A stretch of 64,000 bases of DNA from a virus. The notes below the pieces were generated by a model. That model made no database searches. It was not told the origin of the DNA and saw nothing but the letters and a program-made list of their open reading frames with translations. The translations under genes were made by a program, and so were the position numbers. The stretch lies in the IMG/VR virus record IMGVR_UViG_3300000117_000007; one strand, given 5' to 3'. Below, piece by piece: positions 1,847-50,856 of this stretch (position 1 is its first letter; each line of letters starts with the position of its first letter).

Positions 1847-1854
1847 TATAAATA
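1847..1854 (+). promoter_or_regulatory. T4-type late promoter TATAAATA
   Basis: Exact gp55 consensus 5 nt upstream of ATG 1860. Confidence 0.75.
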
Positions 1855-2762: not shown

Positions 2763-3023
2763 ATGGCAACACAAAACTCATTTGTTATTGAATACGGACT
2801 CACAGTAGGGTCCACTGAAGTAATCAACTCCTCAGGTAAAATCATAGCAAGTGCATTGTCAAATATTGACGCCGATGATATTTCCGAAGGATCAACGAAT
2901 ACATACTTCACAAACGCAAAGGCAAGAGGTGCTATAAGTTTAGCATCAGGCGAAACAAATTTAAACTACAATTCTACCACTGGAGAATTTTCATTACCAA
3001 CAGTTGACGGAGGAACCATTTAA
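2763..3023 (+). CDS. small virion structural protein
   Basis: Paralogous to the N-terminus of the next ORF; contains a DDISEGSTNTYFT repeat; ends VDGGTI. Confidence 0.6.
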   Translation: MATQNSFVIEYGLTVGSTEVINSSGKIIASALSNIDADDISEGSTNTYFTNAKARGAISLASGETNLNYNSTTGEFSLPTVDGGTI

Positions 3024-4888
3024 TGTCAAGCAAAAATTTTATAATCAAAAATGGACTTTCAGTTGGAAGTAATGAGGTAATCGACAGTAATGGTAATATT
3101 GTAGCAAGTAACCTGAGTGAAACAATTGACGATAGAGTCAATACACTTTTAACAGCAGGTTCAGGAATCTCATTGTCATATAATGACAGTGCAAATACTT
3201 TAACAATTACAGGTAATGTCGGAGACATCACAGGAGTTAACGCAGGTGCTGGTTTAACAGGAACTGCAACTTCAGGTGATGCAACACTAAACATTGGTGC
3301 TGGTACTGGTATCACTGTAAACGCAGATGATATCGCAGTTAATATGTCTGCATTCGATACAGACAACCTTTCAGAAGGTTCTTCAAACTTATACTTTTCA
3401 AACGAGAGAGTTGATGATAGAGTAAATGCATTAATCACAGCAGGTTCTAACATTACAACATCATATGATGATGCGGCAGGAACATTAACAATTAATGCTA
3501 CTGAAGATAATCTTTCTAATAATGATACAGATGATTTAACAGAAGGTTCAACAAACTTGTATCATACGACAGCAAGAGCAAGAGCATCTATCAGTGCTGG
3601 TGGCGATCTAAGTTATAACTCTTCAACAGGTGTCATCTCATTTACAAACGATGCTGGTGATATATCATCAGTTGTTGCTGGAGATGGTTTAACAGGTGGT
3701 GGTACATCAGGAGATGTAACACTAAACGTAGTTGCTGGTACAGGTATTACTGCAAATGCAAATGACATTGCAGTTAATATGGGTGCTTTTGATACAGACA
3801 ATCTATCAGAAGGGTCATCTAATCTTTACCACACTTCAGCAAGAGTAGATTCAAGAATTGCATTACAAGTCGGTGCTAATCTAAGTTTAGCAAATAAAGA
3901 TACCGATGATCTAGGAGAAGGTTCAAGTAACCTTTATCATACAGCAGAAAGAGTTTCAGATGTTGTTGGTGCCATGGTATCATCTAACACTGAAAGTGGC
4001 ATTAGTGTCACATATGACGATAATGATAATACACTAGACTTTGCAGTAAGTCTATCACCATTTAGTACAACTAATTTATCTGAAGGTTCTAATCTATACT
4101 TTACTAACGCAAGAGCAGATGCTAGAGTTTCAGCAACTTTACCAGACACAGATTCATTAAGTGAAGGTTCAAGTAACCTTTACCACACTACAGCAAGAGT
4201 TAGAGGGGCAGTATCTGCCTCTGGAGATTTATCTTATAACTCTTCTACTGGTGTATTCTCATACTCAGAACCTACAATGTATGCTGATTCAGATGCCAGA
4301 GGTGCTATCAGTGTAACAGATAGTGGTGGTGACGGATCGTTAACATACAATTCGGGTACAGGTGTTATCACATATAACGGACCAAGTTCATCTGAAGTAA
4401 GATCACACTTCTCAGCAGGAACAGGGGTTGGATTATCAGGCGGTTCAATTAGTATCGGTCAGGCAGTTTCAACCAGCAGTAACGTAACTTTTAATGACTT
4501 AGTTGTTTCAGGTGACTTAACTGTTAATGGTTCAACTTCAACAGTATCATCAACTAATACAACTATCGAAGATACGTTGTTAGAGTTAGGAACAGGAACT
4601 ACTGGTAGTCCTTCAAATGATGCTGGTATCGTCATCGAAAGAGGTGACGAGTCAAATGTCTTTATGGGATGGGACGATAGTGCAAGTAGATTTGTAGTTG
4701 CAACAACAACTGCAACTGGATCTTCTACAGGTGCTTTATCGTTAACTGAGGCCAACTTTAGGGCATCTCAGATTACAACATCATACGCATCTAATAGTGG
4801 TGGTGTTGCAAGGAATGTGTATCAATCAACTTCTGCTCCAACTGGTTCAGACGGTGCAGTTGGTGATATGTGGATTACATATTCTTAA
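3023..4888 (+). CDS. tail fibre protein
   Basis: Multiple (D)TDxLSEGSSNLY(F/H)T repeats, AGxGIT/LT repeats and a C-terminal SAPTGSDGAVGDMWI fibre motif. Confidence 0.75.
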   Translation: MSSKNFIIKNGLSVGSNEVIDSNGNIVASNLSETIDDRVNTLLTAGSGISLSYNDSANTLTITGNVGDITGVNAGAGLTGTATSGDATLNIGAGTGITVNADDIAVNMSAFDTDNLSEGSSNLYFSNERVDDRVNALITAGSNITTSYDDAAGTLTINATEDNLSNNDTDDLTEGSTNLYHTTARARASISAGGDLSYNSSTGVISFTNDAGDISSVVAGDGLTGGGTSGDVTLNVVAGTGITANANDIAVNMGAFDTDNLSEGSSNLYHTSARVDSRIALQVGANLSLANKDTDDLGEGSSNLYHTAERVSDVVGAMVSSNTESGISVTYDDNDNTLDFAVSLSPFSTTNLSEGSNLYFTNARADARVSATLPDTDSLSEGSSNLYHTTARVRGAVSASGDLSYNSSTGVFSYSEPTMYADSDARGAISVTDSGGDGSLTYNSGTGVITYNGPSSSEVRSHFSAGTGVGLSGGSISIGQAVSTSSNVTFNDLVVSGDLTVNGSTSTVSSTNTTIEDTLLELGTGTTGSPSNDAGIVIERGDESNVFMGWDDSASRFVVATTTATGSSTGALSLTEANFRASQITTSYASNSGGVARNVYQSTSAPTGSDGAVGDMWITYS

Positions 4889-4915: not shown

Positions 4916-6673
4916 ATGGCGTCAGGCAATCAGAAAATAAAAACCCCTTCGGGTTGGAATAGCACAAGAGGTGCTTGGGTAAAGACTGGTGGTACAACTT
5001 GGAAGTCAGTAGATCAAATCTATGTCAAGACTCCTACAGGTTGGAACGATGCATCTGGTCAAGAGAACGCACAGCAACCATATCCTTATATTGCCAATGC
5101 TCAAAATCCTGTTATAAGACAACAAGTACAACCATATCCGTACATTGCAAATGCTCAAAATCCGGTTATAAGACAGCAAACGCAACCGTATCCTTACATT
5201 GCGAATGCACAGAATCCGTTCATACGTCAACAGACACAACCTTATCCTTATATTGCGAATGCACAGAATCCATTTATAAGAAATAGACAAACGCCGTTTA
5301 CGTATCAGTATCAGTCCCCAAGTACATATGCTACTCAAGGAAATACACAGGTACCTTATGATCATCAATCACCATTTACTTACGAAACGCAAGGGTCGAC
5401 AAGAGGTAATACTCAAACACCATTTACTTACCCATACATTCAACCACTGATCGGGAATACTCAAGAGTCAAACTCGTATATACATCAGGTTGCAACTACT
5501 GGTAATACAAGATCACCATTTACATATGCATATCAAGTAGATGCTAGAGGCAATACACAAGAACCGAATATCTATAATTATCAAGTAACAACTACTGGTA
5601 ATACAAGATCGCCGTTTACATACGCATACCAAGTTGATGCTAGAGGTAGTACACAAGAACCGAATACTTACATCTATCAAGTATCAACTACTGGTCAGAC
5701 AAGGTCACCATTTACTTACCCTTTCATTGCTAACGCAACAGGGAATACTCAGGAACCTAATACATATTCATATGGTGTTCCTAATATTGGTAATACAAGA
5801 TCACCATTTACATACGCATTCCAAGTAGATGCACAAGGTGTAACTGCTGGAGTTACTAGATCACCATTTACATATGCATATCAAGTAGATGCTAGAGGAA
5901 GTACGCAACAACCTAATACATATAATATACAAACAGCAACGATTGGTCAGACAAGGTCACCATTCACGTATGCATATCAAGTAGATGCTAGAGGAAGTAC
6001 TCAGCAACCTAATACTTACATTTATCAAGTTACTACAACTGGTAATACAAGATCACCATTCACGTATGCATATCAAGTAGATGCTAGAGGAAGTACTCAA
6101 CAACCAAACACTTACCCATTTACTGTAAATGCTAATGGGTCAACTAGATCGCCATTTACTTACCCTTATATCGCCAATGCTACTGGTAATACTAGATCAC
6201 CATTTACGTACCCTTACATAGCAAACGCAACAGGGAATACTAGATCACCATTTAGATACCCTTATATACAACCTTTAATTGGGAACACCACAGGAAATAC
6301 TACGGGTAACACAAGAGTTAATGCACAGGAACCTAATACAACACCTACAACATATCCGTATACAGTAAATGCTCAAGAACCAAACAGAACACCTACAACA
6401 TATCCGTATACAGTAAATGCACAGCAACCAGTGCCATATCCGTTTACATACCCATACACAGTAAACGCAACAGGGAATTCACGAAATCCATTTACATACC
6501 CGTATACAGTCAATGCAACAGGGAATTCAATCGGTAGTACAAGATCACCATACAGATTCCCATTTAGAACACCGACTAGAGTACCATGGAGAGTCACAGC
6601 ACAGCAACCCAGTCAGGGAAGATTCCCATTCTTCTTTAGTCCAGGAGGAGGTTTACCACAATTCTTAAAATAA
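4916..6673 (+). CDS. repetitive Pro/Tyr/Thr/Gln-rich fibre-like protein A
   Basis: N-terminal Trp-rich WVKTGGTTWKSVDQIYVKTPTGW fibre motif, then 18-aa and 16-aa modular repeats. Confidence 0.7.
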   Translation: MASGNQKIKTPSGWNSTRGAWVKTGGTTWKSVDQIYVKTPTGWNDASGQENAQQPYPYIANAQNPVIRQQVQPYPYIANAQNPVIRQQTQPYPYIANAQNPFIRQQTQPYPYIANAQNPFIRNRQTPFTYQYQSPSTYATQGNTQVPYDHQSPFTYETQGSTRGNTQTPFTYPYIQPLIGNTQESNSYIHQVATTGNTRSPFTYAYQVDARGNTQEPNIYNYQVTTTGNTRSPFTYAYQVDARGSTQEPNTYIYQVSTTGQTRSPFTYPFIANATGNTQEPNTYSYGVPNIGNTRSPFTYAFQVDAQGVTAGVTRSPFTYAYQVDARGSTQQPNTYNIQTATIGQTRSPFTYAYQVDARGSTQQPNTYIYQVTTTGNTRSPFTYAYQVDARGSTQQPNTYPFTVNANGSTRSPFTYPYIANATGNTRSPFTYPYIANATGNTRSPFRYPYIQPLIGNTTGNTTGNTRVNAQEPNTTPTTYPYTVNAQEPNRTPTTYPYTVNAQQPVPYPFTYPYTVNATGNSRNPFTYPYTVNATGNSIGSTRSPYRFPFRTPTRVPWRVTAQQPSQGRFPFFFSPGGGLPQFLK

Positions 6674-8250
6674 GAATTAAGGAAAAGTAATTATGGCACA
6701 AGGACCTTATCAATATAGAGCAACAGTTAGAAGTCCAACAGACTACCCTGTGTTTATCAATGCACAAGGGAGTGCCCAACAACCGAATGGATATCCGTTC
6801 ACTTACCCGTATATTGCTAACGCAACAGGGAACAGTAGACAACCATTCACTTACCCATATATTGCTAACGCAACAGGGAGTACAATTGGTGCTACTAGAT
6901 CCCCTTACATAGCAAACGCAACTGGTAATACAAGGGTACCATTTAGATCCCCTTACATAGCAAACGCAACTGGTAACACGATTGTACCATTTAGGTCGCC
7001 ATATAGACAACCTACTACTTATCCATTTACTTATCCGTTTACATATGCGTATCAAGTAGATGCTAGAGGTAGTACACAGCAACCTAATACTTACCCATTT
7101 ACTGTAAATGCTACAGGGAGCACACAGCAACCTAACACTTACCCATTTACTGTAAATGCTACAGGGAATACTCAAGAACCAAATATTTACCCTTATATCG
7201 CCAATGCTACTGGTAATACTAGATCACCATTTAGATATCCGTATATTCAACCGTTAATCGGGAATACACAAGAACCAAATACGTATATCTTCCAAACAGC
7301 AACAATTGGTAATACTAGATCGCCGTTTAGATACCCATATATTCAACCTCTAATCGGGAATACACAAGAACCTAATACTTACATATATCAGACACCAAGT
7401 ATTGGTAACACTAGATCACCATTTAGATACCCTTACATTCAACCTCTAATCGGGAATACACAAGAGGCAAATCCGTATGCATTTAGATATCCGTATATTC
7501 AACCACTAATTGGGAATACGCAAGAACCTAACACATACTCATTCCAAGTTACAACTATTGGTAATACTAGATCGCCTTTCACTTACCCATATACAGTGAA
7601 TGCTACAGGGAATACTCAGGAACCAAATACGTATATCTATCAAACAGCAACGATTGGTAACACTAGATCGCCGTTTAGATACCCATATATACAACCTCTG
7701 ATTGGGAATACACAAGAACCTAACACATATATTTTCCAGTCACCAGCATCTGGTAGCACAAGATCGCCGTTTAGATATCCGTTTATTCAACCGTTGATCG
7801 GGTCTACTCAAGAACCTAATACTTACATATATCAAGTTTCTACACCAGGTATAACTAGATCGCCATTTACATATGCGTATCAAGTAGATGCAACAGGTAA
7901 CACTAGACAACCTAACAGATATCCATTTACATATCCGTACATTGCAACTGGTCAGCAACCTAATATTAGACAGCAGACACAACCGTATCCTTATATTGCT
8001 AACGCAGTGAATCCGTTCATTAGAGATGCTAGACAACCAGCAACATATAATCACAGATCACCTAGCACTTACGCAACTCAAGGGAATACACAAGTGCCAT
8101 ATAATCATAGATCCCCAAGTACATATGCTACTCAAGGAAATACTCAAGTGCCTTATAACCATAGATCCCCAAGTACATATGCTACTCAAGGAACTACAAG
8201 GGTACCATACAGTCATAGATCCCCAAGTACATATGCAAGACAGGGTAGAA
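5070..8250 (+). repeat. coding tandem/modular repeats (48-nt and 54-nt units) inside fibre proteins A and B
   Basis: Recurrent GGTAATAC(A/T)AGATC(A/G)CC(A/G)TTTA, CAAGTAGATGCTAGAGG and CAAGAACCTAATAC units; in frame, varying mostly at synonymous positions. Confidence 0.9.
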
Positions 8251-8315
8251 ATCCTGTGATCAGATGGGATGGAGACTTAGATAACCAATGGCCAGGTTCT
8301 CCAATTACGTCATAA
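6693..8315 (+). CDS. repetitive Pro/Tyr/Thr/Gln-rich fibre-like protein B (mirror partner of A)
   Basis: AAGGA RBS; same repeat vocabulary as protein A in complementary reverse order. Confidence 0.7.
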   Translation: MAQGPYQYRATVRSPTDYPVFINAQGSAQQPNGYPFTYPYIANATGNSRQPFTYPYIANATGSTIGATRSPYIANATGNTRVPFRSPYIANATGNTIVPFRSPYRQPTTYPFTYPFTYAYQVDARGSTQQPNTYPFTVNATGSTQQPNTYPFTVNATGNTQEPNIYPYIANATGNTRSPFRYPYIQPLIGNTQEPNTYIFQTATIGNTRSPFRYPYIQPLIGNTQEPNTYIYQTPSIGNTRSPFRYPYIQPLIGNTQEANPYAFRYPYIQPLIGNTQEPNTYSFQVTTIGNTRSPFTYPYTVNATGNTQEPNTYIYQTATIGNTRSPFRYPYIQPLIGNTQEPNTYIFQSPASGSTRSPFRYPFIQPLIGSTQEPNTYIYQVSTPGITRSPFTYAYQVDATGNTRQPNRYPFTYPYIATGQQPNIRQQTQPYPYIANAVNPFIRDARQPATYNHRSPSTYATQGNTQVPYNHRSPSTYATQGNTQVPYNHRSPSTYATQGTTRVPYSHRSPSTYARQGRNPVIRWDGDLDNQWPGSPITS

Positions 8316-8349: not shown

Positions 8350-9930
8350 ATGAAACCAGATTACGAAACCACCCTTGCTCAATTAAAAGACCTAGACAAA
8401 GGCGATAAGACTTATGTACATCTAGGCAGTTTTGATGCTGATAAAGAGTATAAAGAAACAGATGCATATAAACTATTGAAGTATGTCTTTGAGAATAAAT
8501 TAGATTCACTTAAACGTGTGAAATGGAAAGACATATCAAAACTGCAAAGTACTAGACTAGGCAAATTTGGCGATCAAATGAAATTGAATAGTTATGGTAT
8601 GATGCAACATCAATCATATATCTACAATCATTATCTTCCATTTGGTTACACACAAATAATGGATCCTGAAAGAAATATTAAGGGTCAGATGATTATGGAT
8701 TTTATGAATCATGATGGAGAATATGAAAGTCTTGCTAAGTATTCTAACTTCGAAGGATTGACATGTGATCAAAATACAGACTATGTGAGAGATCAATTAG
8801 GAAGTTTCTATTATCATGCGGCCAAAGGTCACTGGTTAATTCACAATTTACAGAAAGAGGGATTGTGGTTTCCAATTCAAGGACAGATCAATAAGAATGG
8901 TGACAGTGCTAGTTTACAAATACACCCAGGTTCTATACGTACTCCAGTATTTGAGTTATTGAATGATGATAATTTAGAAGTTCTTTTATACAATGACAAA
9001 GATATGTTTCCAGATGTTGCACCATTAGAACTAGATGAATACTTAGAACAGATAATAGAAGAAGTAGATATTCATGGATCACATTCTAATATATCTTTTG
9101 CTTACAGTATGGGTTATATTGAAACTAATTTAAGTCTTCAATCTAAAAGAGATTTCAGAAAAGAAGTATACGACTTCAATAAAAAAGTTAGTGAACAAGT
9201 TAAAGGTAAAAGAGTAACTATCTACATTGGTTATGATAGTCGTCATTCTAATTTAGCAGAGCAAAGTAAAGCATTGATAGAAAGAATGATTGAAAAGAAT
9301 ACTTCATGTTTGGGTGGCGTAAACACGTCTGACCCAATCAAAGCAGTATCAGACTGGAAACCAGAAGTTAAACTTTTAGATATATCAAAAATACCAGAGT
9401 ATACTAGAGAGTATGCTAATCAATCAACAGAATTTACATATAGTAGATTTCTTATCCCTCATTTAGAAAATTATGAAGGGTATAGTATATTCGTAGACGA
9501 TGACTACATCTTTAGAAAGTCTATACTACCATTCTTTTTATTTTTAAATCCCGACGATGCAGTAGCATGTGTTCAATATGATTTTGATAATCATGGCGAG
9601 ACAAAGTTTGATGGAGAAAAGAACGTTTCTTATCCTAAAAAACTATGGTCAAGTTTCATGGTATTCAATAACGGACACGAAGACTGTAAAAAACTAACAC
9701 CAGAAACTGTAAACTCAGAATCTGGTAAGTATCTACATCAATTTGAGTGGACAGATAAGATCAGTAAAATACCAGACTTTCATTTTGTGACAGAAGGGTA
9801 TGATCACTTAGATGATAAACCACAAGCATTTGCGATACATTATACACGTGGTGGTCCATGGATAAAAGACATGGATACCAGCAACATAAATATGTTAAAC
9901 ATATATGATATGTTAACAGACACCGATTAG
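8350..9930 (+). CDS. glycosyltransferase (GT-A fold, C-terminal) fused to an unknown, possibly ParB-like, N-terminal domain
   Basis: IYIGYD, STEFTYSRFL, VDDD (DxD), YPKKLWSS, LHQFEW and HYTRGGPW motifs typical of phage GT8-like glycosyltransferases. Confidence 0.75.
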   Translation: MKPDYETTLAQLKDLDKGDKTYVHLGSFDADKEYKETDAYKLLKYVFENKLDSLKRVKWKDISKLQSTRLGKFGDQMKLNSYGMMQHQSYIYNHYLPFGYTQIMDPERNIKGQMIMDFMNHDGEYESLAKYSNFEGLTCDQNTDYVRDQLGSFYYHAAKGHWLIHNLQKEGLWFPIQGQINKNGDSASLQIHPGSIRTPVFELLNDDNLEVLLYNDKDMFPDVAPLELDEYLEQIIEEVDIHGSHSNISFAYSMGYIETNLSLQSKRDFRKEVYDFNKKVSEQVKGKRVTIYIGYDSRHSNLAEQSKALIERMIEKNTSCLGGVNTSDPIKAVSDWKPEVKLLDISKIPEYTREYANQSTEFTYSRFLIPHLENYEGYSIFVDDDYIFRKSILPFFLFLNPDDAVACVQYDFDNHGETKFDGEKNVSYPKKLWSSFMVFNNGHEDCKKLTPETVNSESGKYLHQFEWTDKISKIPDFHFVTEGYDHLDDKPQAFAIHYTRGGPWIKDMDTSNINMLNIYDMLTDTD

Positions 9931-9934
9931 TCTA

Positions 9935-9963
9935 TTGACTAATCAATACATTTGGAGTATAAT
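9935..9963 (+). promoter_or_regulatory. sigma70-type promoter
   Basis: TTGACT-N17-TATAAT upstream of ATG 9973. Confidence 0.65.
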
Positions 9964-9972
9964 TAAAAGATT

Positions 9973-10524
9973 ATGAATATGTTTATATACGATGAAAATG
10001 GAAATCTAACTATTCGAAAAGAGAGTGGTTTAGAATACTCATTTGACAATACAGATAAACCAGTCCTTGGTTTTGACTACGATGTACTAATCTATGATGA
10101 AATAGAAGTTAAGATTACTAATTGGGAAGAGGGTAAACACTTTGACGATCAAGTCAAACAGAACCTAACTCCTGAAGAATGTGATTCTATTGAGTTGTAT
10201 ATTAAGAACTCAGAACCACCTATGGGGTTCTCATTGAATCAACAACTATCAGAGAGATTGAATATGGCATGTAAGGATTACATTGTCCAAGCAATTCAAG
10301 AATATGGTTTTACTGATTTAACAGAGATCACTTATGCTGGTCGTGAAGGTTCAAATCACCCTCTAAGATCAGATGCTAGATATTGCTTAGATTATTGTGA
10401 TACTGTTTGGGGTGTTTATATGAATATTGTTGAAGAAATTAGAAACACTAGAGAAGATACACTAAAAAGTTTCGAAGAGTATCTTGCACCAATTCCTGGT
10501 GCTTCACGGAACTTAATGAGATAA
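9973..10524 (+). CDS. putative tail-fibre assembly chaperone-like protein
   Basis: C-terminal YGFTDL..ITYAG..NHPLRSDA...LDYCDTVW resembles DUF4376-type fibre-associated proteins; lies after fibre genes. Confidence 0.45.
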   Translation: MNMFIYDENGNLTIRKESGLEYSFDNTDKPVLGFDYDVLIYDEIEVKITNWEEGKHFDDQVKQNLTPEECDSIELYIKNSEPPMGFSLNQQLSERLNMACKDYIVQAIQEYGFTDLTEITYAGREGSNHPLRSDARYCLDYCDTVWGVYMNIVEEIRNTREDTLKSFEEYLAPIPGASRNLMR

Positions 10525-11225
10525 TGCAGTGTCGTCCGCTTGACGAACCTATCGAACAGTTAAGTGTTGAATATATAGATCAACCATTTCAAATATCAGA
10601 ACTACCTTTAGATAGAGTATACGTCTTAGATAACTATTTGCCATTGACCGTATGGCGAAAGATGGATCAGTTATGTACAGATAATATGATCTGGTCTAAA
10701 ACAAATCAAGTTGGTTCACAAAGTCCTACAGGATTACCTTCTCATAGTTTTTGGGGTTCAAGTATTTTTCAAAAGAATAGACGACCTGATACTATCAATT
10801 CAGGCGTAATTCATTTCATGGATATCATCGACAAGAAGATTCAAAATGATTTTGGATTTGAGTGGTTAAGATTTCAATATATGGGTTTAAATTCACAGAC
10901 AGCAGGTTGTCATGGTACAACTCATTCAGATTGTGATAAAGATGATGTTTGGAATTTATCGTTTCTTTTTTACTATAATAGTTTTTGGAATCCAGCATGG
11001 GGTGGTAGTTTAAGATTTTATGACTCACCTCAACAAGGATTAGATGGTCGTGATGAACACATAGAGAATCATCAACTCGCAGAAGTTGAATTCAAACCAA
11101 ATAGATTGCTTATGTTTGATGGTAGAATACCACACGGAGCAGATGCACCCAAAGAACGTGCCAGATATATGGACAGAAGGTCGTTAGTTTTGAGGGGCGA
11201 TGAAGTAAAACTCACTCATGTATAA
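10524..11225 (+). CDS. 2OG-Fe(II) oxygenase (prolyl-hydroxylase-like)
   Basis: HxD (THSD), WNPAWGGSLRF, FKPNRLLMFDGRIPH and distal Arg. Confidence 0.85.
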   Translation: MQCRPLDEPIEQLSVEYIDQPFQISELPLDRVYVLDNYLPLTVWRKMDQLCTDNMIWSKTNQVGSQSPTGLPSHSFWGSSIFQKNRRPDTINSGVIHFMDIIDKKIQNDFGFEWLRFQYMGLNSQTAGCHGTTHSDCDKDDVWNLSFLFYYNSFWNPAWGGSLRFYDSPQQGLDGRDEHIENHQLAEVEFKPNRLLMFDGRIPHGADAPKERARYMDRRSLVLRGDEVKLTHV

Positions 11226-11781
11226 AGTAGTAGACAGTCAGTTCATAATCGATAATCATGCAGAGTTAGAGTACACTGCAACACAAATATGTAAACAGTA
11301 TATGCCCTTTCTAAGTCAAGATGAATATGCAGGTACATTTAAAAAGGGTGGTGGAGACTATACAGAAAATCACGATACATATAATATATGGTCACTACTT
11401 AGAGATTTTAAAATTTGGCAACCAGTATATGAAGAAGTCACTGATACTATAAAAAGTTGCTATGACGGTCCGAGTGATTATCTTTATCTAAAATCATGGA
11501 TCAATTATAGTGAGGGTAAAGAGTTATTAGGTTGGCATGGTCATAATTGTAAGTTACATGGATATGTTTCAATAACTCCTCATAAAACTACTACTGAGTT
11601 TGAAAGATTTGAAGTAGAAAATAAAATCGGTAGAATTTATGTAGGACCAGGTATATATTTACATAGAGTAAATATTGTTAAACCATTTACAGGAAAAAGA
11701 ATAACAATTGGTTTTGATGTATATGACAACGTAGATCATTCTAGAAGACCGCTAAATACAATACCAATAAGAGTACACTAA
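11218..11781 (+). CDS. putative 2OG-Fe(II) oxygenase
   Basis: WIN...WHGH...HGY...HRV...RITIGFD double-stranded beta-helix motif set; paralog of 62837-63454. Confidence 0.65.
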   Translation: MYKVVDSQFIIDNHAELEYTATQICKQYMPFLSQDEYAGTFKKGGGDYTENHDTYNIWSLLRDFKIWQPVYEEVTDTIKSCYDGPSDYLYLKSWINYSEGKELLGWHGHNCKLHGYVSITPHKTTTEFERFEVENKIGRIYVGPGIYLHRVNIVKPFTGKRITIGFDVYDNVDHSRRPLNTIPIRVH

Positions 11782-12683
11782 TGCCACATATAGATTTCAT
11801 AACAAACAGTAAAGATACACTTAGAGATTTCAAACCAGTTCTTGCAAAATCTATTATGCCCGAATGGTGGAAGAAAGGAAAAATTGATCAGTATATACGT
11901 GGTGAATTTGTTCAAACTATCAGAGCATGTCCTGCCATGGACGATTGGACTAAATCAGGATATTACATCGTAGCAAATAGAGACTTTAAAATTCTTGCTG
12001 GTGAAGAAAGAATACATGAAGAAGCAAATACTATTGGTGCTTTAGATACATCAGGACATTTGTATGAATCACAGTCACACCCTAAAGATCAGATGTTTAA
12101 TACATTTGAATATCTAGGCGATGATGGACCAGTTAAAGATGCATTTAAAATGAGAAATCCATGGAACGTCAAAACACCTCCTGGTTATTCGACTTTATAC
12201 TTAGACCCGTTCTTATTTCAAGGAAGAGCATTTGCGGCATGGCAAGGCATTATAGATACTGATAAGATGCATGTCAATCAAGACAACGCACAGATAATAT
12301 TTTATCCAAGATTCAATACAAGTTTTACAATTAAAAAGGGTACACCTTTAGTTCAATGTATTCCATTTAAAAGAGAAGAGTGGCATGCATCTTTTCAATA
12401 TCAAGACCCTAAAACATTTCATGAAAATAGATCTGGTCCTAAAGAACATGGTGGAATATCTAACGAAGATGTATTGTCAGTAGATTATTGGAATAGATGT
12501 GGTAGATACGACCAAGATGTTATGGACGGAAAAACTCAGAGAGATGAAAGAAAAAAAGGCACTATGAAAATGGGTCCTTATAGAACTGAAGGTTATTGGA
12601 CAGAAAAGTCAAAGTTCTTTAAGACTATGGAAGAAGTTACACCACCACCTGAGTGTCCTATGCACAAGAGTGAGGAAGAATAA
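11781..12683 (+). CDS. conserved phage protein (DUF6065-like, often beside oxygenases)
   Basis: PEWWK, TIRACPAM, NPWNVKTPPGYS, GIIDTD and IKKGTPLVQCIPFKR motifs. Confidence 0.55.
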   Translation: MPHIDFITNSKDTLRDFKPVLAKSIMPEWWKKGKIDQYIRGEFVQTIRACPAMDDWTKSGYYIVANRDFKILAGEERIHEEANTIGALDTSGHLYESQSHPKDQMFNTFEYLGDDGPVKDAFKMRNPWNVKTPPGYSTLYLDPFLFQGRAFAAWQGIIDTDKMHVNQDNAQIIFYPRFNTSFTIKKGTPLVQCIPFKREEWHASFQYQDPKTFHENRSGPKEHGGISNEDVLSVDYWNRCGRYDQDVMDGKTQRDERKKGTMKMGPYRTEGYWTEKSKFFKTMEEVTPPPECPMHKSEEE

Positions 12684-13390
12684 TGAGTACAGTACACTAT
12701 CTATTTCCTAGTTTTGTTTTTGAAAGAGATTTCTTAGGCAGACATCAACATGTCGAACCATCTATGAACGAAGACTACTTCGAGCAGTTAAAAAATGAAA
12801 TCGATTCTATGAGAAAGAAAGATCCAGTTGGTAGAAGAGTTTCAAATGCATATACAGGTTGGCAATCACATGATGGTTGCGATAATAATCCTGCTTTTAT
12901 CAAATGTATAAGATCAATCAAACGTATGATGAGAGACGAAGTAATGTTGCACTTAGGTGTAAAGAGTGGGTTTCAAGTAGAGTTTCATAATTGTTGGGCA
13001 AACATAAACGATAATATGGCATGGAATAGACCACATTTACACAATGGTTGCTTTATGAGTGGTGTCTTATATATTAAAGCAGATGGTGATGAAGGAAACT
13101 TCAGTGCAATCGATACAGATGCAAGAGTTGTTGGTGCCCATCCTGTCATGCCAAAAATGAAAGAGTCAGTACAGTTTCAACCTAGAACTGGTACGATGTA
13201 TTTATTTCCTAGTGGGTTGATGCATATGGTCGAACCTAATCTAACTGATAAAGATAGATACAGTATATCTTTTAACATGAATGTTGTTCAGAATAATTTA
13301 AAGATTGGCAGTGTCGACGAGAACGATTTTACTGAAGATAATCATAGTTTATCATGGGAATTAGACGAGCAGGGCAAACTGATTATCTAA
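12683..13390 (+). CDS. 2OG-Fe(II) oxygenase (TIGR02466-like)
   Basis: WANIN..NRPHLH, SGVLY, LFPSGLMHMVEPN, RYSISFN. Confidence 0.85.
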   Translation: MSTVHYLFPSFVFERDFLGRHQHVEPSMNEDYFEQLKNEIDSMRKKDPVGRRVSNAYTGWQSHDGCDNNPAFIKCIRSIKRMMRDEVMLHLGVKSGFQVEFHNCWANINDNMAWNRPHLHNGCFMSGVLYIKADGDEGNFSAIDTDARVVGAHPVMPKMKESVQFQPRTGTMYLFPSGLMHMVEPNLTDKDRYSISFNMNVVQNNLKIGSVDENDFTEDNHSLSWELDEQGKLII

Positions 13391-25863: not shown

Positions 25864-27174
25864 ATGTTCTTATCAGAAAATTTACAAGAAAAGTGGTCCC
25901 CTATACTTGAGCATTCTGATCTTCCAAAGATCGAAGACAACTATAAGAGAGCGGTCACTGCTGTTATCCTCGAGAACCAAGAGAAAGCACTAGCAGAAGA
26001 TAGAGCAACTCTTTCCGAGGCAGCACCTTTAAATGCTACAGGTGGTACAGCAATCAACAATTGGGATCCTATTTTGATCTCATTAGTTAGACGTGCTATG
26101 CCAAATCTCGTTGCTTACGACATTTGCGGTGTTCAACCAATGACAGGTCCAACAGGACTTATCTTTGCTATGAAGGCAAGGTATCAAGATTATCCTTCAG
26201 CAGGACGTGAAGGACAATCAGAAGCATTAGGTATCAAAGAACCTAGAACTGGTTATTCTGCTTCAGCAGGACCAAACAGTACAGCAGGTGTTGATGCAGA
26301 CCCAGAAGGAAATCCTTTTGCAGGGTCAAGTGCTTATCAAAACCAAACTTCAGGCGCAATGGATACACAAAATGCAGAAGCATTAGGTGATGGAGCATCG
26401 AACCACTTTCAAGAGATGTCATTTACTATTGAGAAATCAACTGTAACTGCTAACTCTAGAGCATTAAAGGCCGAGTATTCACTCGAACTTGCACAAGACT
26501 TAAAAGCAATCCACGGTCTTGATGCAGAATCAGAACTAGCAAATATTCTTTCATCAGAAATTCTTGCTGAAATCAACCGTGAAGTTGTTAGAGAAGTTAA
26601 CAACCAAGCAAAAACTGGTGCGGAAGCAACTGCTTCAGCAGGTACTTTCAACCTAGACGTTGATGCTAACGGTAGATGGTCAGTTGAGAAATTCAAAGGA
26701 TTATTGTTCCAAATCGAAAGAGAATCTAACAAGATCGCAAAAGAAACAAGAAGAGGTAAAGGTAACTTTATTCTATGTTCTTCAGACGTTGCATCTGCTC
26801 TTTCAATGGCAGGAGTATTAGATTACGCACCTGCTCTTAACACTAACATTAACGTTGATGATACTGGCAATACTTTTGCTGGTGTTCTTAACGGTAGAGT
26901 TAAAGTATACATCGATCCATATGCTGGATCAGATTACTTGACTGTTGGTTATAGAGGATCAAATCCGTATGATGCTGGTATGTTCTACTGTCCATATGTA
27001 CCTTTACAAATGGTCAGAGCAGTTGGAGAGAATACTTTCCAACCAAAAATCGGATTCAAGACAAGATACGGAATGGTATCTAACCCATTTGTAGGTGATG
27101 CACCTGTAAGTGGTCTTGCACCAGATGGAAACAACCAGTACTACAGAAAGATGTTAGTATCTAACATTCTGTAA
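25864..27174 (+). CDS. gp23: major capsid protein gp23
   Basis: LVRRAMPNL.AYDICGVQPMTGPTG, ELAQDLKAIHGLDAE and FQPKIGFKTRYG. Confidence 0.98.
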   Translation: MFLSENLQEKWSPILEHSDLPKIEDNYKRAVTAVILENQEKALAEDRATLSEAAPLNATGGTAINNWDPILISLVRRAMPNLVAYDICGVQPMTGPTGLIFAMKARYQDYPSAGREGQSEALGIKEPRTGYSASAGPNSTAGVDADPEGNPFAGSSAYQNQTSGAMDTQNAEALGDGASNHFQEMSFTIEKSTVTANSRALKAEYSLELAQDLKAIHGLDAESELANILSSEILAEINREVVREVNNQAKTGAEATASAGTFNLDVDANGRWSVEKFKGLLFQIERESNKIAKETRRGKGNFILCSSDVASALSMAGVLDYAPALNTNINVDDTGNTFAGVLNGRVKVYIDPYAGSDYLTVGYRGSNPYDAGMFYCPYVPLQMVRAVGENTFQPKIGFKTRYGMVSNPFVGDAPVSGLAPDGNNQYYRKMLVSNIL

Positions 27175-37339: not shown

Positions 37340-37369
37340 TTGACAGTAACCCCTACTTTTTTATATACT
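37340..37369 (+). promoter_or_regulatory. early sigma70-type promoter
   Basis: TTGACA-N18-TATACT, 6 nt before ATG 37376. Confidence 0.75.
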
Positions 37370-37375
37370 AATCCT

Positions 37376-39766
37376 ATGACTGAGAAACTTAAAAATCAAA
37401 AATCAACTCTTGCGAAACTGATGGCGTCAGAAGACATCACAGTTCTTCACAAGAAAATACCAACTGCATACTTTGATGTAAAGAACAGGATACTTGCTTG
37501 TCCTACTTTCAAAGATGATATTTCACCAGAACTTTATGACTTGTTTATGGGTCACGAAGTTGGTCATGCATTGAATACACCTTTCGAAGGGTTACATTCT
37601 ACTCTTAAAGAGAATAGAACTCTCAAGGGTTATCTCAATGTTGTAGAAGATGTCAGAATTGAAAGAAAGATTAAAGACAAGTTTGCTGGACTTAGAAAGT
37701 CTTTTTATGCCGCATACAATGAATTGATGCAGAGAGACTTCTTTGGAATCAAAGATAGAAATCTTCAAGAACTTTCATTGATTGACAAGATCAATTTGAT
37801 CACCAAGTGTGGTTCAAGAGTTTCAATTACACTGACCGATGAAGAGCAGGTGTTCTTAGATGCTTCACTTAAGTGTGAGACATGGGAAGATGTTGTTCAA
37901 GTTGCTACAGCAATCTATGAGTGGTCAAAAGAAAACGAAACAAGAGACGAATCAGACCAAGCAATCACTTATCAGTATTCAGATATCGAAGATATCGACG
38001 AAGATGAGGACGATTTCGAAGAAGATTATGAAGATGATTTTGGTTCTGATGGCGAAGAGTCAGACGTAGAGCAAGAGAACTCAGAGCAAGAAGACTCTCT
38101 CCCAGACGTTCCTACGGGTACTGGAGACGTTCCAGCGGGTGCTTCTGAAGAGACTGAAGACGATGTATCAGAGTCAGAAGAGCAGATTAAACAGACTGGT
38201 GGCAAGTTCGGTGGTACTTCTTACGGAATGCATGACGATGAAAATGGTGCTAGAGAATCATTGACTGAACATTTTGCTCACAATAATGAAGACCAGTTCA
38301 TAGATGAGAATGCTTGTATCAAAACTAGCATCGATCTTAAAAAGAACTGGAAGAACATAGATGATATGTACTACTCTTACACTGAGGTGTTCAACGACTT
38401 CGATCAAATGATGGTGATCACTGATGCCGACAAAGCAGATAATTGGAAGTTAAAAAGAAAACAAGAGTCAATGCAATTTATACCTCTTGCTGGACCTGGT
38501 ACTAGAAAATATCTACAAGACAAAAACAAAAGTATTGTTGCCCACATGGCAAAAGAGTTTGAAATGAGACAGACTGCCATGAGATCAGCAAAAGCATTCA
38601 CTGGTAAAAGTGGTCAACTTGATATGAATAGACTTGCAAAGTATCAGATCATTGAAGATGTATTCAAGAGAGTTACTTATTTACCAGACGGAAAGAATCA
38701 CGGTGTTAACGTGTTACTTGACTGGTCAGGTTCTATCTCTCATGAGATTAAAGACTTGATCGAGCAAACTTTCATCTTATCAGAATTCTGTAACAAAGTT
38801 CAGATTCCTTTCAGAATCTTCTTGTTCTCAGATTCAATTATGAGAGGTGAAGATTACTGGTCAAGTGGTGAGGGCAAACTTGTAGAACTTCTTTCAAACG
38901 AAATGAGTGGTAAAAAGTACACTAAGGGTTTGAATATTCTTTCTCAAATGTACATGCACTTCTGGAAATCTGAAATACTTCAAGGTTGGGAACCTGCTGA
39001 TTCAGAAGATGTTGAATTATTAAATTCAATATTCAACCTTGACCCAGAAGATGCCTCATATTATGATAAGAGAAATGATCTTAATTATTGTGACTTGGTC
39101 CCAAACAACTTCAGACTTGGCGGGACACCTCTTAATCACTGTTTACTAGCAATGAGAAAGTGGATCCCAGAGTTCAACAGAATGTACGGAATTGAAAAGT
39201 CAATCATGACAATTATCACTGATGGTTTCAGTCATGAATCAGACTTGCTCAGACAGTCCGACGAAGAGTTTGCAGATGCTAAGTCTCAGATGGGTAGTGA
39301 CTGGATCGGCAGATCAAACATGAAAAGATACTTGATTGATCCTTACACTAACAAGACGTATCTTTACCATGAACCAAGTGACTACAACTATGGTGACTGG
39401 AACAGAACTGCTAATCTACTTGAGTGGATATCAGAAACTTGTAACGTTACAATCACTGGTTACTTTGTCTTCAGTAAGAAGAAAGATTTTTCAACTACTA
39501 CCCACTACATGCCTGGCATTTCTTGGGAAGAGAAAGATGAAATCTGGAAAGCAATGAGAAAGACTGGTTACGTTTTCAAAACTAAAGGTTACAACAAGTT
39601 ATTCTTTACTTACAAAAATAACTTAACTGCATCAAGTGATACTGAATTGTCAGACGACTTGGTCGATGCTAAGAAGTCTAGGTTGACTTCAGCATTTAAA
39701 AAGAATCAGAAGTCTAAAGTAACATCTAGATTTCTAACAACTGAGTTCATAAAGGAGATAGCATAA
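37376..39766 (+). CDS. metallopeptidase-like plus vWA domain protein (CobT-like partner of the AAA ATPase)
   Basis: HEVGH zinc motif, acidic linker, MIDAS DWSGS, GGTPL and ITDG. Confidence 0.8.
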   Translation: MTEKLKNQKSTLAKLMASEDITVLHKKIPTAYFDVKNRILACPTFKDDISPELYDLFMGHEVGHALNTPFEGLHSTLKENRTLKGYLNVVEDVRIERKIKDKFAGLRKSFYAAYNELMQRDFFGIKDRNLQELSLIDKINLITKCGSRVSITLTDEEQVFLDASLKCETWEDVVQVATAIYEWSKENETRDESDQAITYQYSDIEDIDEDEDDFEEDYEDDFGSDGEESDVEQENSEQEDSLPDVPTGTGDVPAGASEETEDDVSESEEQIKQTGGKFGGTSYGMHDDENGARESLTEHFAHNNEDQFIDENACIKTSIDLKKNWKNIDDMYYSYTEVFNDFDQMMVITDADKADNWKLKRKQESMQFIPLAGPGTRKYLQDKNKSIVAHMAKEFEMRQTAMRSAKAFTGKSGQLDMNRLAKYQIIEDVFKRVTYLPDGKNHGVNVLLDWSGSISHEIKDLIEQTFILSEFCNKVQIPFRIFLFSDSIMRGEDYWSSGEGKLVELLSNEMSGKKYTKGLNILSQMYMHFWKSEILQGWEPADSEDVELLNSIFNLDPEDASYYDKRNDLNYCDLVPNNFRLGGTPLNHCLLAMRKWIPEFNRMYGIEKSIMTIITDGFSHESDLLRQSDEEFADAKSQMGSDWIGRSNMKRYLIDPYTNKTYLYHEPSDYNYGDWNRTANLLEWISETCNVTITGYFVFSKKKDFSTTTHYMPGISWEEKDEIWKAMRKTGYVFKTKGYNKLFFTYKNNLTASSDTELSDDLVDAKKSRLTSAFKKNQKSKVTSRFLTTEFIKEIA

Positions 39767-40038
39767 TGAGAAACTTAGCAATTGATATAACTGAATACGA
39801 AAACTTCCCAGATGGTGGCAATGTCGCAAGGAACAAATTTGCTGAAGCAATGGCAAACATTGGTCCTGGTCCATGTGTGAAGTTCAACTGTGAGAGGCAA
39901 CAAGAATGTGCATCTGAAAAAGTTGAATGTAAGGCATTTAGATACTGGGTAAACAATGACAGTTACTGGACAAAAAGAAAAGGTGTTAAGACATCAATCA
40001 GTGTTGACCTAGGCAGATTAATCAAGGAGATGGAATAA
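39766..40038 (+). CDS. hypothetical Cys-rich protein
   Basis: AAGGAG RBS; four clustered Cys. Confidence 0.6.
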   Translation: MRNLAIDITEYENFPDGGNVARNKFAEAMANIGPGPCVKFNCERQQECASEKVECKAFRYWVNNDSYWTKRKGVKTSISVDLGRLIKEME

Positions 40039-40577
40039 TGACCAAGATAGCACTATCACAAATTGGTGAAAAGGGAGAAGCAAAAGCAAGGTGTGTAATG
40101 AGGGATATAATTGTCCCATTCAAAATCGTACCTGGTTTAACTGAAGAATCAATCAAGATGTGCAAAGCATTCAATGTTGAATACTTAATCGAACTAGCAC
40201 TAGCAAAGGTCGGAGGGTACAATTTTGTAGATGAATCTGGATTTGATTTTGATGATTACTCAGATAGTAAGACTGCAAGTGTGGAACCTAGAGGTGGGGT
40301 GTCCATCGGGTCACTCGAAACAAAGATTGGTTCTATAAGAGCAGTGATCTATAATCCATTTGAAGATAGGTTAGACTACTTCTTTTTTCCAGTTGATGGG
40401 TGGAAAGATTTAGAAGAAGCATCATACGGAAAAGCAAAGCACAAAACAAGAATCAGATCATCTTATAATAAGACAACTCAGATGTATTCTAAGTTTGAAC
40501 CTTATAGATGTAAAGACTTTAAAGAACTGGCAAAAAAAGTTGCCTGTGAAGTAGATGCAGAAATTATTTTGGGTTAA
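40038..40577 (+). CDS. hypothetical protein, possibly PD-(D/E)xK nuclease-like
   Basis: E...GFDFDDYSDSKT pattern. Confidence 0.4.
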   Translation: MTKIALSQIGEKGEAKARCVMRDIIVPFKIVPGLTEESIKMCKAFNVEYLIELALAKVGGYNFVDESGFDFDDYSDSKTASVEPRGGVSIGSLETKIGSIRAVIYNPFEDRLDYFFFPVDGWKDLEEASYGKAKHKTRIRSSYNKTTQMYSKFEPYRCKDFKELAKKVACEVDAEIILG

Positions 40578-40581
40578 GGGG

Positions 40582-40611
40582 TTGACAATGACCCTCACTT
40601 TTTGATACCAT
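40582..40611 (+). promoter_or_regulatory. early sigma70-type promoter
   Basis: TTGACA-N18-TACCAT with the conserved CTCACTTTTT spacer. Confidence 0.7.
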
Positions 40612-40654
40612 TATAACTGATGAGAAATTTAACGTGTAATTTTAAGGAGACTAT

Positions 40655-41923
40655 ATGAAAGCACACAATGAGTATAATATAAAAAGATCGTATGACGAAT
40701 CGGAGTCAGTCATACTTTCTACAGGGAAGAAATTCCACATGACTCCAGATAGGAAAGAATTCTTAGCAGAACTTCAATCTGCCTTTCCTGAGCAATCTGT
40801 TTTTCTAAAAGAAGATTTAGAAAAACTATCACACACCCCATACTGGGTGAAGTCAACAAGGTTCCCTTTTGCTTCTGCTGATAAATCGTCATATGATTTG
40901 ACTATGTTACTTGGTGGTTTGTCACCGACAGCAGTTCAAAATGTGAAACAACCAACGGTTATTCCAATGACACCAGCACCTGTTTCTAATAACATGCCTG
41001 TCGCCGCTCAGACTCAAGCAGTGAATCTGATCGAAGACAATGTAAAAATCATTCCTGAGAAAATGACTAACTATGTTCCGTTTGGACATTTCAAAGATGT
41101 CAAACAGATTATCAAGTCTAAGATTTTCTTCCCAGTCTTTGTGACAGGGTTATCTGGTAATGGTAAAACATTGATGATCGAACAAGTATGTGCCCAACTG
41201 AAGAGAGAACTCTACAGGGTCAATATCACCATCGAGACTGATGAAGATGATTTGATGGGTGGTCATACTCTTCAAAATGGTAACATTACTTTCAGAGAAG
41301 GTCCTGTTATCAAAGCAATGAGAAAGGGTGCCGTACTCTTGCTCGATGAAGTCGATCTTGGTTCTAACAAGTTGATGTGTCTACAATCAGTTCTTGAAGG
41401 TAAAGGTTATCTAATCAAGAAAACTGGTGAGTGGGTGACACCTGCACCAGGATTTACAATTCTTGCGACTGCTAATACAAAGGGTCAAGGTTCAGAAGAT
41501 GGCAAGTTCATCGGAACTCAGATCATGAACGAGGCGATGCTTGAAAGATTCGCCATCACAATGCAACAAGAATATCCACCAGTGTCAACTGAGAAGAGAA
41601 TTCTTAAGAAAGAAATGGAACTAAGTGGTTCTGTTGATGAAGAGTTCTGTGACAAACTTGTCGACTGGGCAGACATTATCAGAAAGACCTATTACGAGGG
41701 TGCTATCGATGATGTTGTTACTACAAGGAGACTTGTTCACATTGTCAATGCATTCAGAATGTTTGACGACAAAATGAAGTCAATCGAAATGTGTATTACA
41801 AGATTTGATGAAGAAACTAGAAGTTCCATTCTCGACCTCTACACCAAAGTAGATGCAGGGGTCGACATGGAAAACCCTCTTGAAGATTCAGAGTCTTCAG
41901 AGTATAATGAATACGATGAGTAA
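40655..41923 (+). CDS. MoxR-family AAA+ ATPase (CobS-like)
   Basis: GLSGNGKT, LLLDEVD, ATANTKGQG and LERF. Confidence 0.88.
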   Translation: MKAHNEYNIKRSYDESESVILSTGKKFHMTPDRKEFLAELQSAFPEQSVFLKEDLEKLSHTPYWVKSTRFPFASADKSSYDLTMLLGGLSPTAVQNVKQPTVIPMTPAPVSNNMPVAAQTQAVNLIEDNVKIIPEKMTNYVPFGHFKDVKQIIKSKIFFPVFVTGLSGNGKTLMIEQVCAQLKRELYRVNITIETDEDDLMGGHTLQNGNITFREGPVIKAMRKGAVLLLDEVDLGSNKLMCLQSVLEGKGYLIKKTGEWVTPAPGFTILATANTKGQGSEDGKFIGTQIMNEAMLERFAITMQQEYPPVSTEKRILKKEMELSGSVDEEFCDKLVDWADIIRKTYYEGAIDDVVTTRRLVHIVNAFRMFDDKMKSIEMCITRFDEETRSSILDLYTKVDAGVDMENPLEDSESSEYNEYDE

Positions 41924-50428: not shown

Positions 50429-50856
50429 TGCCATATTCAGATAAAGTCTTAGAAAGATTCGAAGGAGTGGTCAATTCACCGAAGCAATTCTCAGTGGGTC
50501 GATTTGATCCAAAAGATAAAGATGTTGCTACAGGTATGGCAGGTGCACCAGCATGTGGTGATGTCATGAGACTACAACTCAAACTAGATGAGAATGAACT
50601 CATCACAGATGTAAAATTTAAAACCTATGGATGTGGAAGTGCAATTGCATCTGCATCTATGTTCGTAGACTTACTCAAAGGTAAGACAATCACAGAAGCA
50701 AAAGAGATCAAAGATAAAGATATTGCAGAAGCATTGGAATTGCCACCTATCAAAATACACTGTTCAGTGTTAGCAGAAGAATCAATAAGAAAAGCAATAG
50801 AAGATTGGGAAGAAAAGAAACAAGACGTTCAACTGTATCCTGAAAACGGAATGTAA
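50428..50856 (+). CDS. iscU: Fe-S cluster scaffold IscU
   Basis: GAPACGDVM, FKTYGCGSAIAS and LPPIKIHCSVLAE. Confidence 0.95.
   Translation: MPYSDKVLERFEGVVNSPKQFSVGRFDPKDKDVATGMAGAPACGDVMRLQLKLDENELITDVKFKTYGCGSAIASASMFVDLLKGKTITEAKEIKDKDIAEALELPPIKIHCSVLAEESIRKAIEDWEEKKQDVQLYPENGM

What the first reader, a model, noticed from the sequence alone, without database searches (positions are those of the whole stretch)
4916..8315. Two adjacent repeat proteins are exact mirror complements: a candidate antiparallel fibre with a protein 'base-pairing' code
Seen in sequence: both proteins are built from 16-aa units. Define second-half modules P=PYIQPLIG, V=AYQVDARG, I=PYIANATG, T=P(Y/F)TVNATG and x=variable IYQVxTxG. 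The core of A, read N-to-C, is P x V x V x I x V(+4aa) V x V x V T I I P. The core of B, read C-to-N, is V x P x P x T x P(+4aa) P x P x P I T T V. Every position pairs P-V, I-T or x-x, and the 4-aa insertions coincide (GVTA in A, PYAF in B). First-half modules also pair: RSPF always faces Q(E/Q)PN. The pattern continues outward. A's GNTTGNTTGNT faces B's TYPFTYPFTY; A's four distal TVNA face B's four N-terminal IANA; A's four N-terminal 18-mers (QQTQPYPYIANAQNPFIR) face B's four C-terminal 18-mers (YNHRSPSTYATQGNTQVP), with one reciprocal copy in each protein. The symmetry is in protein module order; it is not a DNA inverted repeat. Established: the T4 gp37 needle is a long antiparallel beta-hairpin, and A's N-terminus carries a fibre-type Trp motif directly after a tail-fibre gene. 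Inference: A and B zip into a very long antiparallel beta-ribbon fibre, like a hairpin split into two genes. About 530 residues at about 0.33 nm each would give roughly 170 nm if fully extended. Register would be set by module complementarity, with A's aromatic C-terminus and B's N-terminus at the tip. I know of no description of such a two-gene complementary repeat code.
Basis: partly seen in the sequence, partly recalled or inferred. Interest (0 to 1): 0.95.

Follow-up and report, generated by a model that had tools for sequence, protein, structure and literature searches.

The report
Two-protein mirror-coded phage fibre zipper
Two neighbouring genes of an uncultured marine T4-like phage encode proteins that match each other residue by residue when one is read backwards, a rule kept in dozens of relatives of very different length and in natural one-chain fusions, so they most likely zip head-to-tail into one very long, thin fibre of a design I could not find described.

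Summary
A (585 aa) and B (540 aa) align antiparallel on one ungapped diagonal (i+j=574, about 510 pairs). The pairing code is Pro-Gln/Arg, Gly/Ala-Tyr/Phe, Asn-Thr, Glu-Ser. All 125 prolines in the paired arms share one strand parity. There is no DNA inverted repeat.

A pair matrix trained on this window alone picked the true partner in 30 of 30 other non-redundant pairs. Arm lengths co-vary (r=0.9995; B 202-562 aa) and indels are mirrored. The rule survives reversed gene order, holds in a paralogous pair, and recurs inside natural single-gene hairpins at the same loci.

Best reading: A and B are the outgoing and returning strands of an antiparallel beta fibre shaft, up to about 170 nm, docked on the upstream fibre. 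The split frees A's C-terminus at the tip to carry a Hint or variable domain.

Binding, stoichiometry, length and virion location are not shown. Five of 67 pairs break the rule on one side, probably through assembly collapse. The closest analogue is the T4 gp37 needle, which is not homologous. The scan had noted this system before in other genomes.

The parts
4916..6673 (+). Gene A, 585 aa: outgoing strand of the zipper
   Evidence: no significant Pfam, PHROG, PDB or GenBank-phage match
4916..5065 (+). A residues 1-50: conserved Trp-rich base domain, predicted beta-hairpin; probable docking module (inferred)
   Evidence: invariant columns in 31 pairs; strands 14-24 and 27-37 at pLDDT 70-81 in the fused orthologue
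5066..6601 (+). A zipper arm, residues 51-562
   Evidence: single antiparallel diagonal with B
5405..6280 (+). A core of 18 sixteen-residue modules
6602..6673 (+). A tip tail, aromatic and Gly-rich; in 35 of 67 pairs followed by a Hint domain, absent here
6693..8315 (+). Gene B, 540 aa: returning strand of the zipper
6726..8261 (+). B zipper arm, residues 12-523
7044..7895 (+). B core, mirror complement of the A core
8262..8315 (+). B conserved C-terminal base peptide with two Trp; lies opposite A's base domain in register
3023..4888 (+). Upstream fibre-like structural gene, 621 aa, ending in a G-D-M-W motif; proposed anchor of the zipper (inferred)
   Evidence: PHROG 697 structural protein E 2.6e-53, PHROG 2952 minor tail; cyanophage structural proteins; the same kind of C-terminal motif precedes both zipper pairs in the 10 related loci whose gene order I listed
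1847..1854 (+). T4-type late promoter consensus upstream of the gene run that includes the fibre gene, A and B
   Evidence: 10 exact matches in the window, all on the + strand; the count alone is not above chance

Best explanation
A and B are the two antiparallel beta-strands of one very long, thin fibre shaft of a marine T4-like myovirus. SHOWN: residue i of A is matched to residue len(B)+34-i of B along the whole arm. One parity class holds aromatic-small pairs (Tyr/Phe with Gly/Ala/Arg/Val; also His-Asn, Glu-Ser). The other holds every proline, paired with Gln or Arg (also Asn-Thr, Ile-Gln). Lengths, indels and substitutions co-vary between the genes, and single-gene fold-back versions replace the pair at the same locus. 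INFERRED: the matched residues are cross-strand neighbours. The aromatic face forms a hydrophobic core and the prolines sit at outward-facing, non-hydrogen-bonded sites, limiting off-register or edge pairing. The aperiodic module order fixes one register and keeps the phage's two zippers from cross-pairing. The base (A N-terminal Trp domain plus B C-terminal peptide) docks on the C-terminal motif of the upstream fibre. Splitting the hairpin frees A's C-terminus at the tip to carry a variable domain or a Hint domain. Stoichiometry is open: a 1:1 ribbon, or three A:B pairs wound into a gp37-like needle (I lean slightly to 3:3, because the anchor fibre is probably trimeric). Length is up to about 170 nm if extended at 0.33 nm per residue. 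The probable job is long-reach host capture in dilute water.
For: Register and code. Parity over 31 pairs: Pro 2818:3, Tyr 1:1869, Phe 5:960; no Pro faces Pro in the window. Held-out test with a matrix from the window only: cognate A is best for 30/30 B; coverage of at least 80% in 29/30 cognate versus 1/870 non-cognate pairings; arm-length r=0.9995. Mirrored indels between close relatives: +18/+18, -18/-18, +12/+12, -20/-20, and +8,-16,-16 against -16,-16,+8. Substitutions co-occur at matched sites (odds ratio 9.0). Direct coupling peaks at offset 0, then at plus and minus 2, the antiparallel beta signature. Gene order B-then-A keeps the rule (L172). Fused orthologue L173 (378 aa) has i+j=412=length+34 and the same parity classes. 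About 15 fused paralogues self-pair. The upstream paralogous pair obeys the same code; the cognate score beats both cross-pair scores in 14 of 15 loci. Context: tail and baseplate region with late promoters. In T4 gp37, G921 packs on F970 at the mirror sum of its stem (PMC6957217).
Against: No structure or binding data. AlphaFold2 models of fused proteins are low confidence (pLDDT 31 and 45), and the single-sequence model resembles a beta-solenoid rather than a hairpin. Five of 67 pairs lose repeats on one side only, including the window's closest relative L001, and one has a 1-aa shift; I did not prove these are assembly collapses. The pairs are related, so they are not 30 independent events. 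No cultured phage carries the genes, so virion location and host are unshown.
Confidence: 0.8

Rival explanations
1. A and B pair antiparallel in the coded register but coil into a compact intertwined double-stranded beta-helix or solenoid, so the structure is much shorter and thicker than a needle.
For: Units of 4 to 18 residues with recurring Gly and Pro could mark turns. The single-sequence model of the fused protein resembles beta-helices (Z 8.8, rmsd 4.0, 207 aligned).
Against: That model has pLDDT 45 and such Z values are common background. Unit lengths vary freely within and between arms, which a solenoid rung would not tolerate. Strict two-residue parity runs over hundreds of residues.
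Confidence: 0.08
2. The zipper is real but is not a tail-fibre extension. It is a head or collar filament, or B acts as an assembly scaffold or ruler for A and is not part of the mature virion.
For: Location is inferred from gene order only. The upstream gene's best PHROG family is classed as head and packaging. The pair lies shortly before the neck genes.
Against: Fused A-B single chains replace the pair, so B's sequence is part of the same final chain there. B has a conserved base peptide. The paralogous pair follows baseplate genes and A-type chains carry variable tip domains.
Confidence: 0.1
3. The mirror pattern is a by-product of DNA-level copying or assembly and the proteins do not interact.
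For: A and B share a few exact DNA blocks in direct orientation (47 nt at 6160 and 7187), so module exchange does occur. Assemblers break at these repeats.
Against: No inverted, reversed or complemented DNA relation. The code is chemical and parity-bound. It is kept with different module alphabets, with reversed gene order and in fusions. B shows 122 synonymous against 37 non-synonymous codon differences from its closest relative.
Confidence: 0.02

Closest known systems
Needle (domains D10-D11) of the T4 long tail fibre tip, gp37; six-stranded antiparallel needle (PMC7291167, PMC6957217)
   Same: Outgoing and returning antiparallel strands in mirror register at the end of a phage fibre. A Gly-aromatic cross pair at the mirror sum (G921 with F970 of another subunit) forms the core.
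   Different: No sequence match. The gp37 stem is 50 residues per strand against 190-550 here. gp37 is one chain in a homotrimer held by His-bound iron; this pair is split over two genes, has no His-x-His motif, and is punctuated by a proline about every 8 residues.
Tandem beta-zippers, e.g. staphylococcal fibronectin-binding repeats on fibronectin modules, or LIM-domain partners (own knowledge; search found no paper on a mirror-coded fibre)
   Same: Extended antiparallel beta pairing of two different proteins over several modules in a set register.
   Different: There a disordered peptide adds a strand to a chain of folded domains over tens of residues. Here two equally extended chains are matched residue by residue over hundreds of residues and co-evolve in length.
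Antiparallel coiled-coil arms of SMC/Rad50/MukB and heterodimeric coiled coils (own knowledge)
   Same: Long two-stranded antiparallel rod whose two arms must match in length; a simple pairing code.
   Different: Those are alpha-helical with a degenerate heptad code. This is proline-rich, beta-type by parity, with an aperiodic register.
Hint (bacterial intein-like) domains
   Same: About half of the A homologues end in a Hint domain starting with Cys and ending His-Asn.
   Different: The residue after His-Asn was never Cys, Ser or Thr in the pairs tallied, so it cannot splice canonically. The window's A lacks the domain, so it is an optional tip module.

Membership tests
T4 gp37 / lambda Stf needle | Sequence homology to gp37 D10-D11 | tested here: not met
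   No PDB sequence hit to E 1; no Pfam or PHROG hit
T4 gp37 / lambda Stf needle | His-x-His iron-binding motifs along the needle | tested here: not met
   0 in window A and B; 5 in total over 67 pairs
T4 gp37 / lambda Stf needle | Outgoing and returning strands in mirror register with Gly-aromatic cross pairs | tested here: met
   54 Gly-Tyr pairs in the window register; gp37 precedent
T4 gp37 / lambda Stf needle | Both strands in one polypeptide | tested here: not met
   Two genes in the window, 19-nt out-of-frame gap; met in fused relatives such as L173
T4 gp37 / lambda Stf needle | Trimeric six-stranded assembly | not testable with these tools
   Complex prediction unavailable; monomer models low confidence
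T4 gp37 / lambda Stf needle | Fold similarity to the solved needle | tested here: inconclusive
   Model pLDDT 45; no Foldseek match at E 0.001; wide search gives only background solenoid hits
Phage tail-fibre component (function class) | Late gene in the tail or baseplate module next to a fibre gene | tested here: met
Phage tail-fibre component (function class) | Present in virions at the fibre tip | not testable with these tools
   No cultured carrier found
Parallel beta-solenoid repeat protein | Constant rung length, self-stacking in parallel | tested here: not met
   Unit lengths 4-18 mixed within arms; parallel and self diagonals far weaker than the antiparallel A-B diagonal
Tandem beta-zipper | One partner is an array of folded globular modules | tested here: not met
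   Both chains use the same low-complexity module set, and each module type occurs in both
Intein / Hint | Hint domain in the window's A | tested here: not met
   A ends 45 residues beyond B's length with no Hint; present in 35 of 67 pairs

The most novel reading that the evidence does not exclude
A natural, extensible protein 'duplex': two separately encoded chains recognise each other through a residue-level complement code over up to about 550 residues, form a fibre whose length is set by co-edited repeat number, and stay orthogonal to a second duplex in the same virion. It would be usable as a programmable two-strand protein zipper. In the most speculative version, the optional Hint domain activates A's C-terminus for ligation to B's adjacent N-terminus, closing the hairpin after translation (about 10% on its own).
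Probability: 0.6. Interest if true: 0.93.

Novelty: categorically new. Interest (0 to 1): 0.88.

Why it matters
If confirmed, it is a fibre architecture absent from Pfam, PHROGs and the PDB, yet common in uncultured marine T4-like phages (309 matching stretches in viral contigs and 368 in metagenome contigs, overlapping). It supplies about 10,000 naturally selected cross-strand pairs in known register, a direct data set for what determines beta-strand register. It offers a design rule for orthogonal, length-programmable protein zippers. It also raises a testable evolutionary question: how two genes gain and lose repeats in mirror step. One A:B pair could be as long as a whole T4 long tail fibre (145 nm, PMC6957217), which bears on how phages find hosts in dilute seawater.

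Tried and rejected
No whole genome is held for this window.

AlphaFold2 on a fused paralogue with 16 sequences gave pLDDT 31. Its two long strands, 20-34 and 415-429, do sum to the code-derived register 449, but at that confidence I count it only as a hint. AlphaFold2 on fused L173 alone gave pLDDT 45; Foldseek and VIA searches with it gave only background hits. ESM Atlas returned only unnamed viral clusters for L173 and nothing usable for one tip domain.

The Pfam Rhodopsin_N match to A has no stretch passing on its own and was rejected. There were no GenBank phage hits for A, its N-terminal domain or a fused paralogue. Long non-phage hits of the representative search carry almost none of the repeat motifs and were set aside as low-complexity matches.

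Metatranscriptome contigs cover most of the stretch but cannot show transcription. MAG bin labels of L170-L173 name four different bacterial orders and were not taken as hosts. A DNA-templated mirror was rejected. Intramolecular fold-back of A or B alone scores far below A:B in all 31 pairs. A read-through A-B alignment was built but not folded.

Literature searches found no description of such a pair; most subscription journals are not covered. Hutchinson 1998 on strand register was not retrievable, so the hydrogen-bonded versus non-hydrogen-bonded assignment rests on my own knowledge.

Full report
Setting. The window is the structural and replication region of a T4-like myovirus: neck genes, tail sheath, major head protein, helicases and polymerase. 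Its capsid protein is about 65% identical to those of Melnitz and HTVC008M. Near-identical DNA occurs in 14 marine and freshwater DNA runs from separate studies, one of which may be the source. A (585 aa) and B (540 aa) follow a fibre-like structural gene downstream of a T4 late-promoter consensus. Neither has a significant Pfam, PHROG, PDB or cultured-phage match.

Observation. The module mirror is exact, including the 4-residue insertions. A million shuffles never exceeded 14 of 18 matches. At residue level one ungapped antiparallel diagonal, i+j=574, covers all of B, at 1.41 bits against a background of 0.61 (sd 0.11); parallel and self pairings are weaker. It is not a DNA symmetry. Two independent runs reproduce B's core without a difference.

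The code. Pooled over the non-redundant pairs (9,913 residue pairs), Pro faces Gln or Arg in 95% of cases and Glu faces Ser in 90%. His faces Asn in 74%, Phe faces Ala or Gly in 76%, and Tyr faces Arg, Ala, Gly or Val in 87%. The pairs fall into two alternating classes. Pro splits 2818:3 and Ile 1019:46 into one; Tyr 1869:1, Phe 960:5 and Gly 451:48 into the other. From established beta-sheet geometry (own knowledge), proline can only sit where its missing NH is not needed, so its class is read as the non-hydrogen-bonded sites and the Gly/Ala-aromatic class as the hydrogen-bonded sites. The two classes point to opposite faces. In cross-validated prediction, a partner residue adds most information at offset 0, then at plus and minus 2. 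The partner's nine-residue window alone predicts a residue almost as well as its own neighbours (1.49 versus 1.37 bits, background 3.68).

Homologues. I collected 67 distinct complete pairs, 31 after clustering. A matrix trained only on the window picked the cognate A for 30 of 30 other B chains. Coverage reached 80% in 29 of 30 cognate and 1 of 870 non-cognate pairings. The register is almost always len(B)+34 while B ranges from 202 to 562 aa, and arm lengths correlate at r=0.9995. Close relatives differ by equal indels in both genes, in mirror order. Substitutions co-occur at matched sites (odds ratio 9.0 at offset 0, 9.9 at +2, 3-7 elsewhere). These pairs are related, so they are not independent trials, but they use different module alphabets.

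Exceptions. L058, L063 and L156 lack one repeat block in one gene relative to pairs otherwise 99-100% identical. L093 lacks 20 residues in A only and L072 has a one-residue insertion in B. L001, the window's closest relative, lost two 32-residue blocks in B but 180 residues in A, in one step between two identical modules. Assemblers break at these repeats, so collapse is the likely cause, but I could not prove it. Two further pairs missed my length window only because of tail length or Hint calling; their diagonals are full.

Fusions, order and paralogues. L173 has a single 378-aa gene at this locus with A's start, B's end, a Gly-Gly turn at the midpoint and self-register 412, again length+34. 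In L172, B precedes A and the rule holds. A paralogous pair upstream obeys the same code. Its cognate score exceeds both cross-pair scores in 14 of 15 loci, though three loci score weakly. In several genomes it is replaced by one self-pairing gene. This is the strongest support for a hairpin split into two genes.

Architecture (inferred). Both pairs follow a fibre gene that ends in a Gly-Asp/His-Leu/Met-Trp motif. A similar Lys-Val-Lys-led beta domain sits at the zipper base in both, on A's N-terminus here and on B's C-terminus in the paralogue. I infer that this base docks on the fibre end. At the tip, split versions let A carry extra domains: a Hint domain in 35 of 67 pairs or a variable domain of about 200 aa. 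About 510 pairs at 0.33 nm give roughly 170 nm, an upper bound, comparable with the 145 nm T4 long tail fibre (PMC6957217).

What is not shown. AlphaFold2 models of fusions are unreliable (pLDDT 31 and 45), and fold searches gave background only. Stoichiometry is open. The prolines favour a protected two-stranded ribbon. But in gp37 the mirror-register Gly-Phe contact is between subunits, so the same code fits a 3:3 needle.

Comparison and verdict. It works like the gp37 needle stem but is not a member: no homology, no His-x-His iron sites, two genes, up to ten times longer per strand. I found no paper describing such a pair, within the library's limits. The scan's own notes report the same system from other genomes. 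I treated them as leads: they gave the gp37 paper, the coiled-coil comparison and the shared-DNA-block lead. My reading was fixed before I saw them. Verdict: real, strongly supported by comparative evidence, structurally unproven; categorically new as a design; interest 0.88.

Noticed in passing
window 8350-13390: A 526-aa gene with a glycosyltransferase-like C-terminal half, followed by 2OG-Fe(II) oxygenase genes, follows the pair in the loci whose genes I listed. They might hydroxylate prolines and glycosylate the Pro/Thr-rich fibre; this is speculation, since such genes are common in marine myoviruses.
   Followed up: partly
L008:10001-12723, L022:839-3069, L024:206-2142: A second, paralogous zipper pair lies about 8-10 kb upstream, after the baseplate genes. 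Its A carries a variable C-terminal domain of about 200 aa. In this genome it would lie before the window start.
   Followed up: yes
L173:4811-5947: Natural single-gene fusion of A and B (378 aa) at the same locus, with a Gly-Gly turn near residue 206; seen on one contig only. Best target for structure work.
   Followed up: yes
L172:9420-11215: Gene order reversed (B before A) with the mirror register kept.
   Followed up: yes
L002:7741-8262 and 34 other pairs: Optional Hint domain after a Gly-rich linker at A's C-terminus, a few residues from where B's N-terminus lies in register; no splicing nucleophile after His-Asn.
   Followed up: partly
proteins P0030, P0031, P0042, P0203, P0097: Tip domains are swapped between the two paralogous A types; one B-like protein carries a Hint domain; one fusion joins the first pair's N-terminus to the second pair's C-terminus (short contig, may be chimeric).
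   Followed up: no
window 6160-6206 and 7187-7233: Exact 47-nt block shared by A and B in direct orientation, plus several of 25-32 nt: module exchange between the genes.
   Followed up: partly
window 50856-52694: Phage-encoded CHASE2 plus adenylate/guanylate cyclase protein, 612 aa.
   Followed up: no
window 37340-41923: 808-aa peptidase-family gene and a CobS-like ATPase typical of marine T4-like phages.
   Followed up: no
window 25864-27174: Major capsid protein closest to Methylophilales phage Melnitz and Pelagibacter phage HTVC008M at about 65% identity; no close cultured relative, host unknown.
   Followed up: yes
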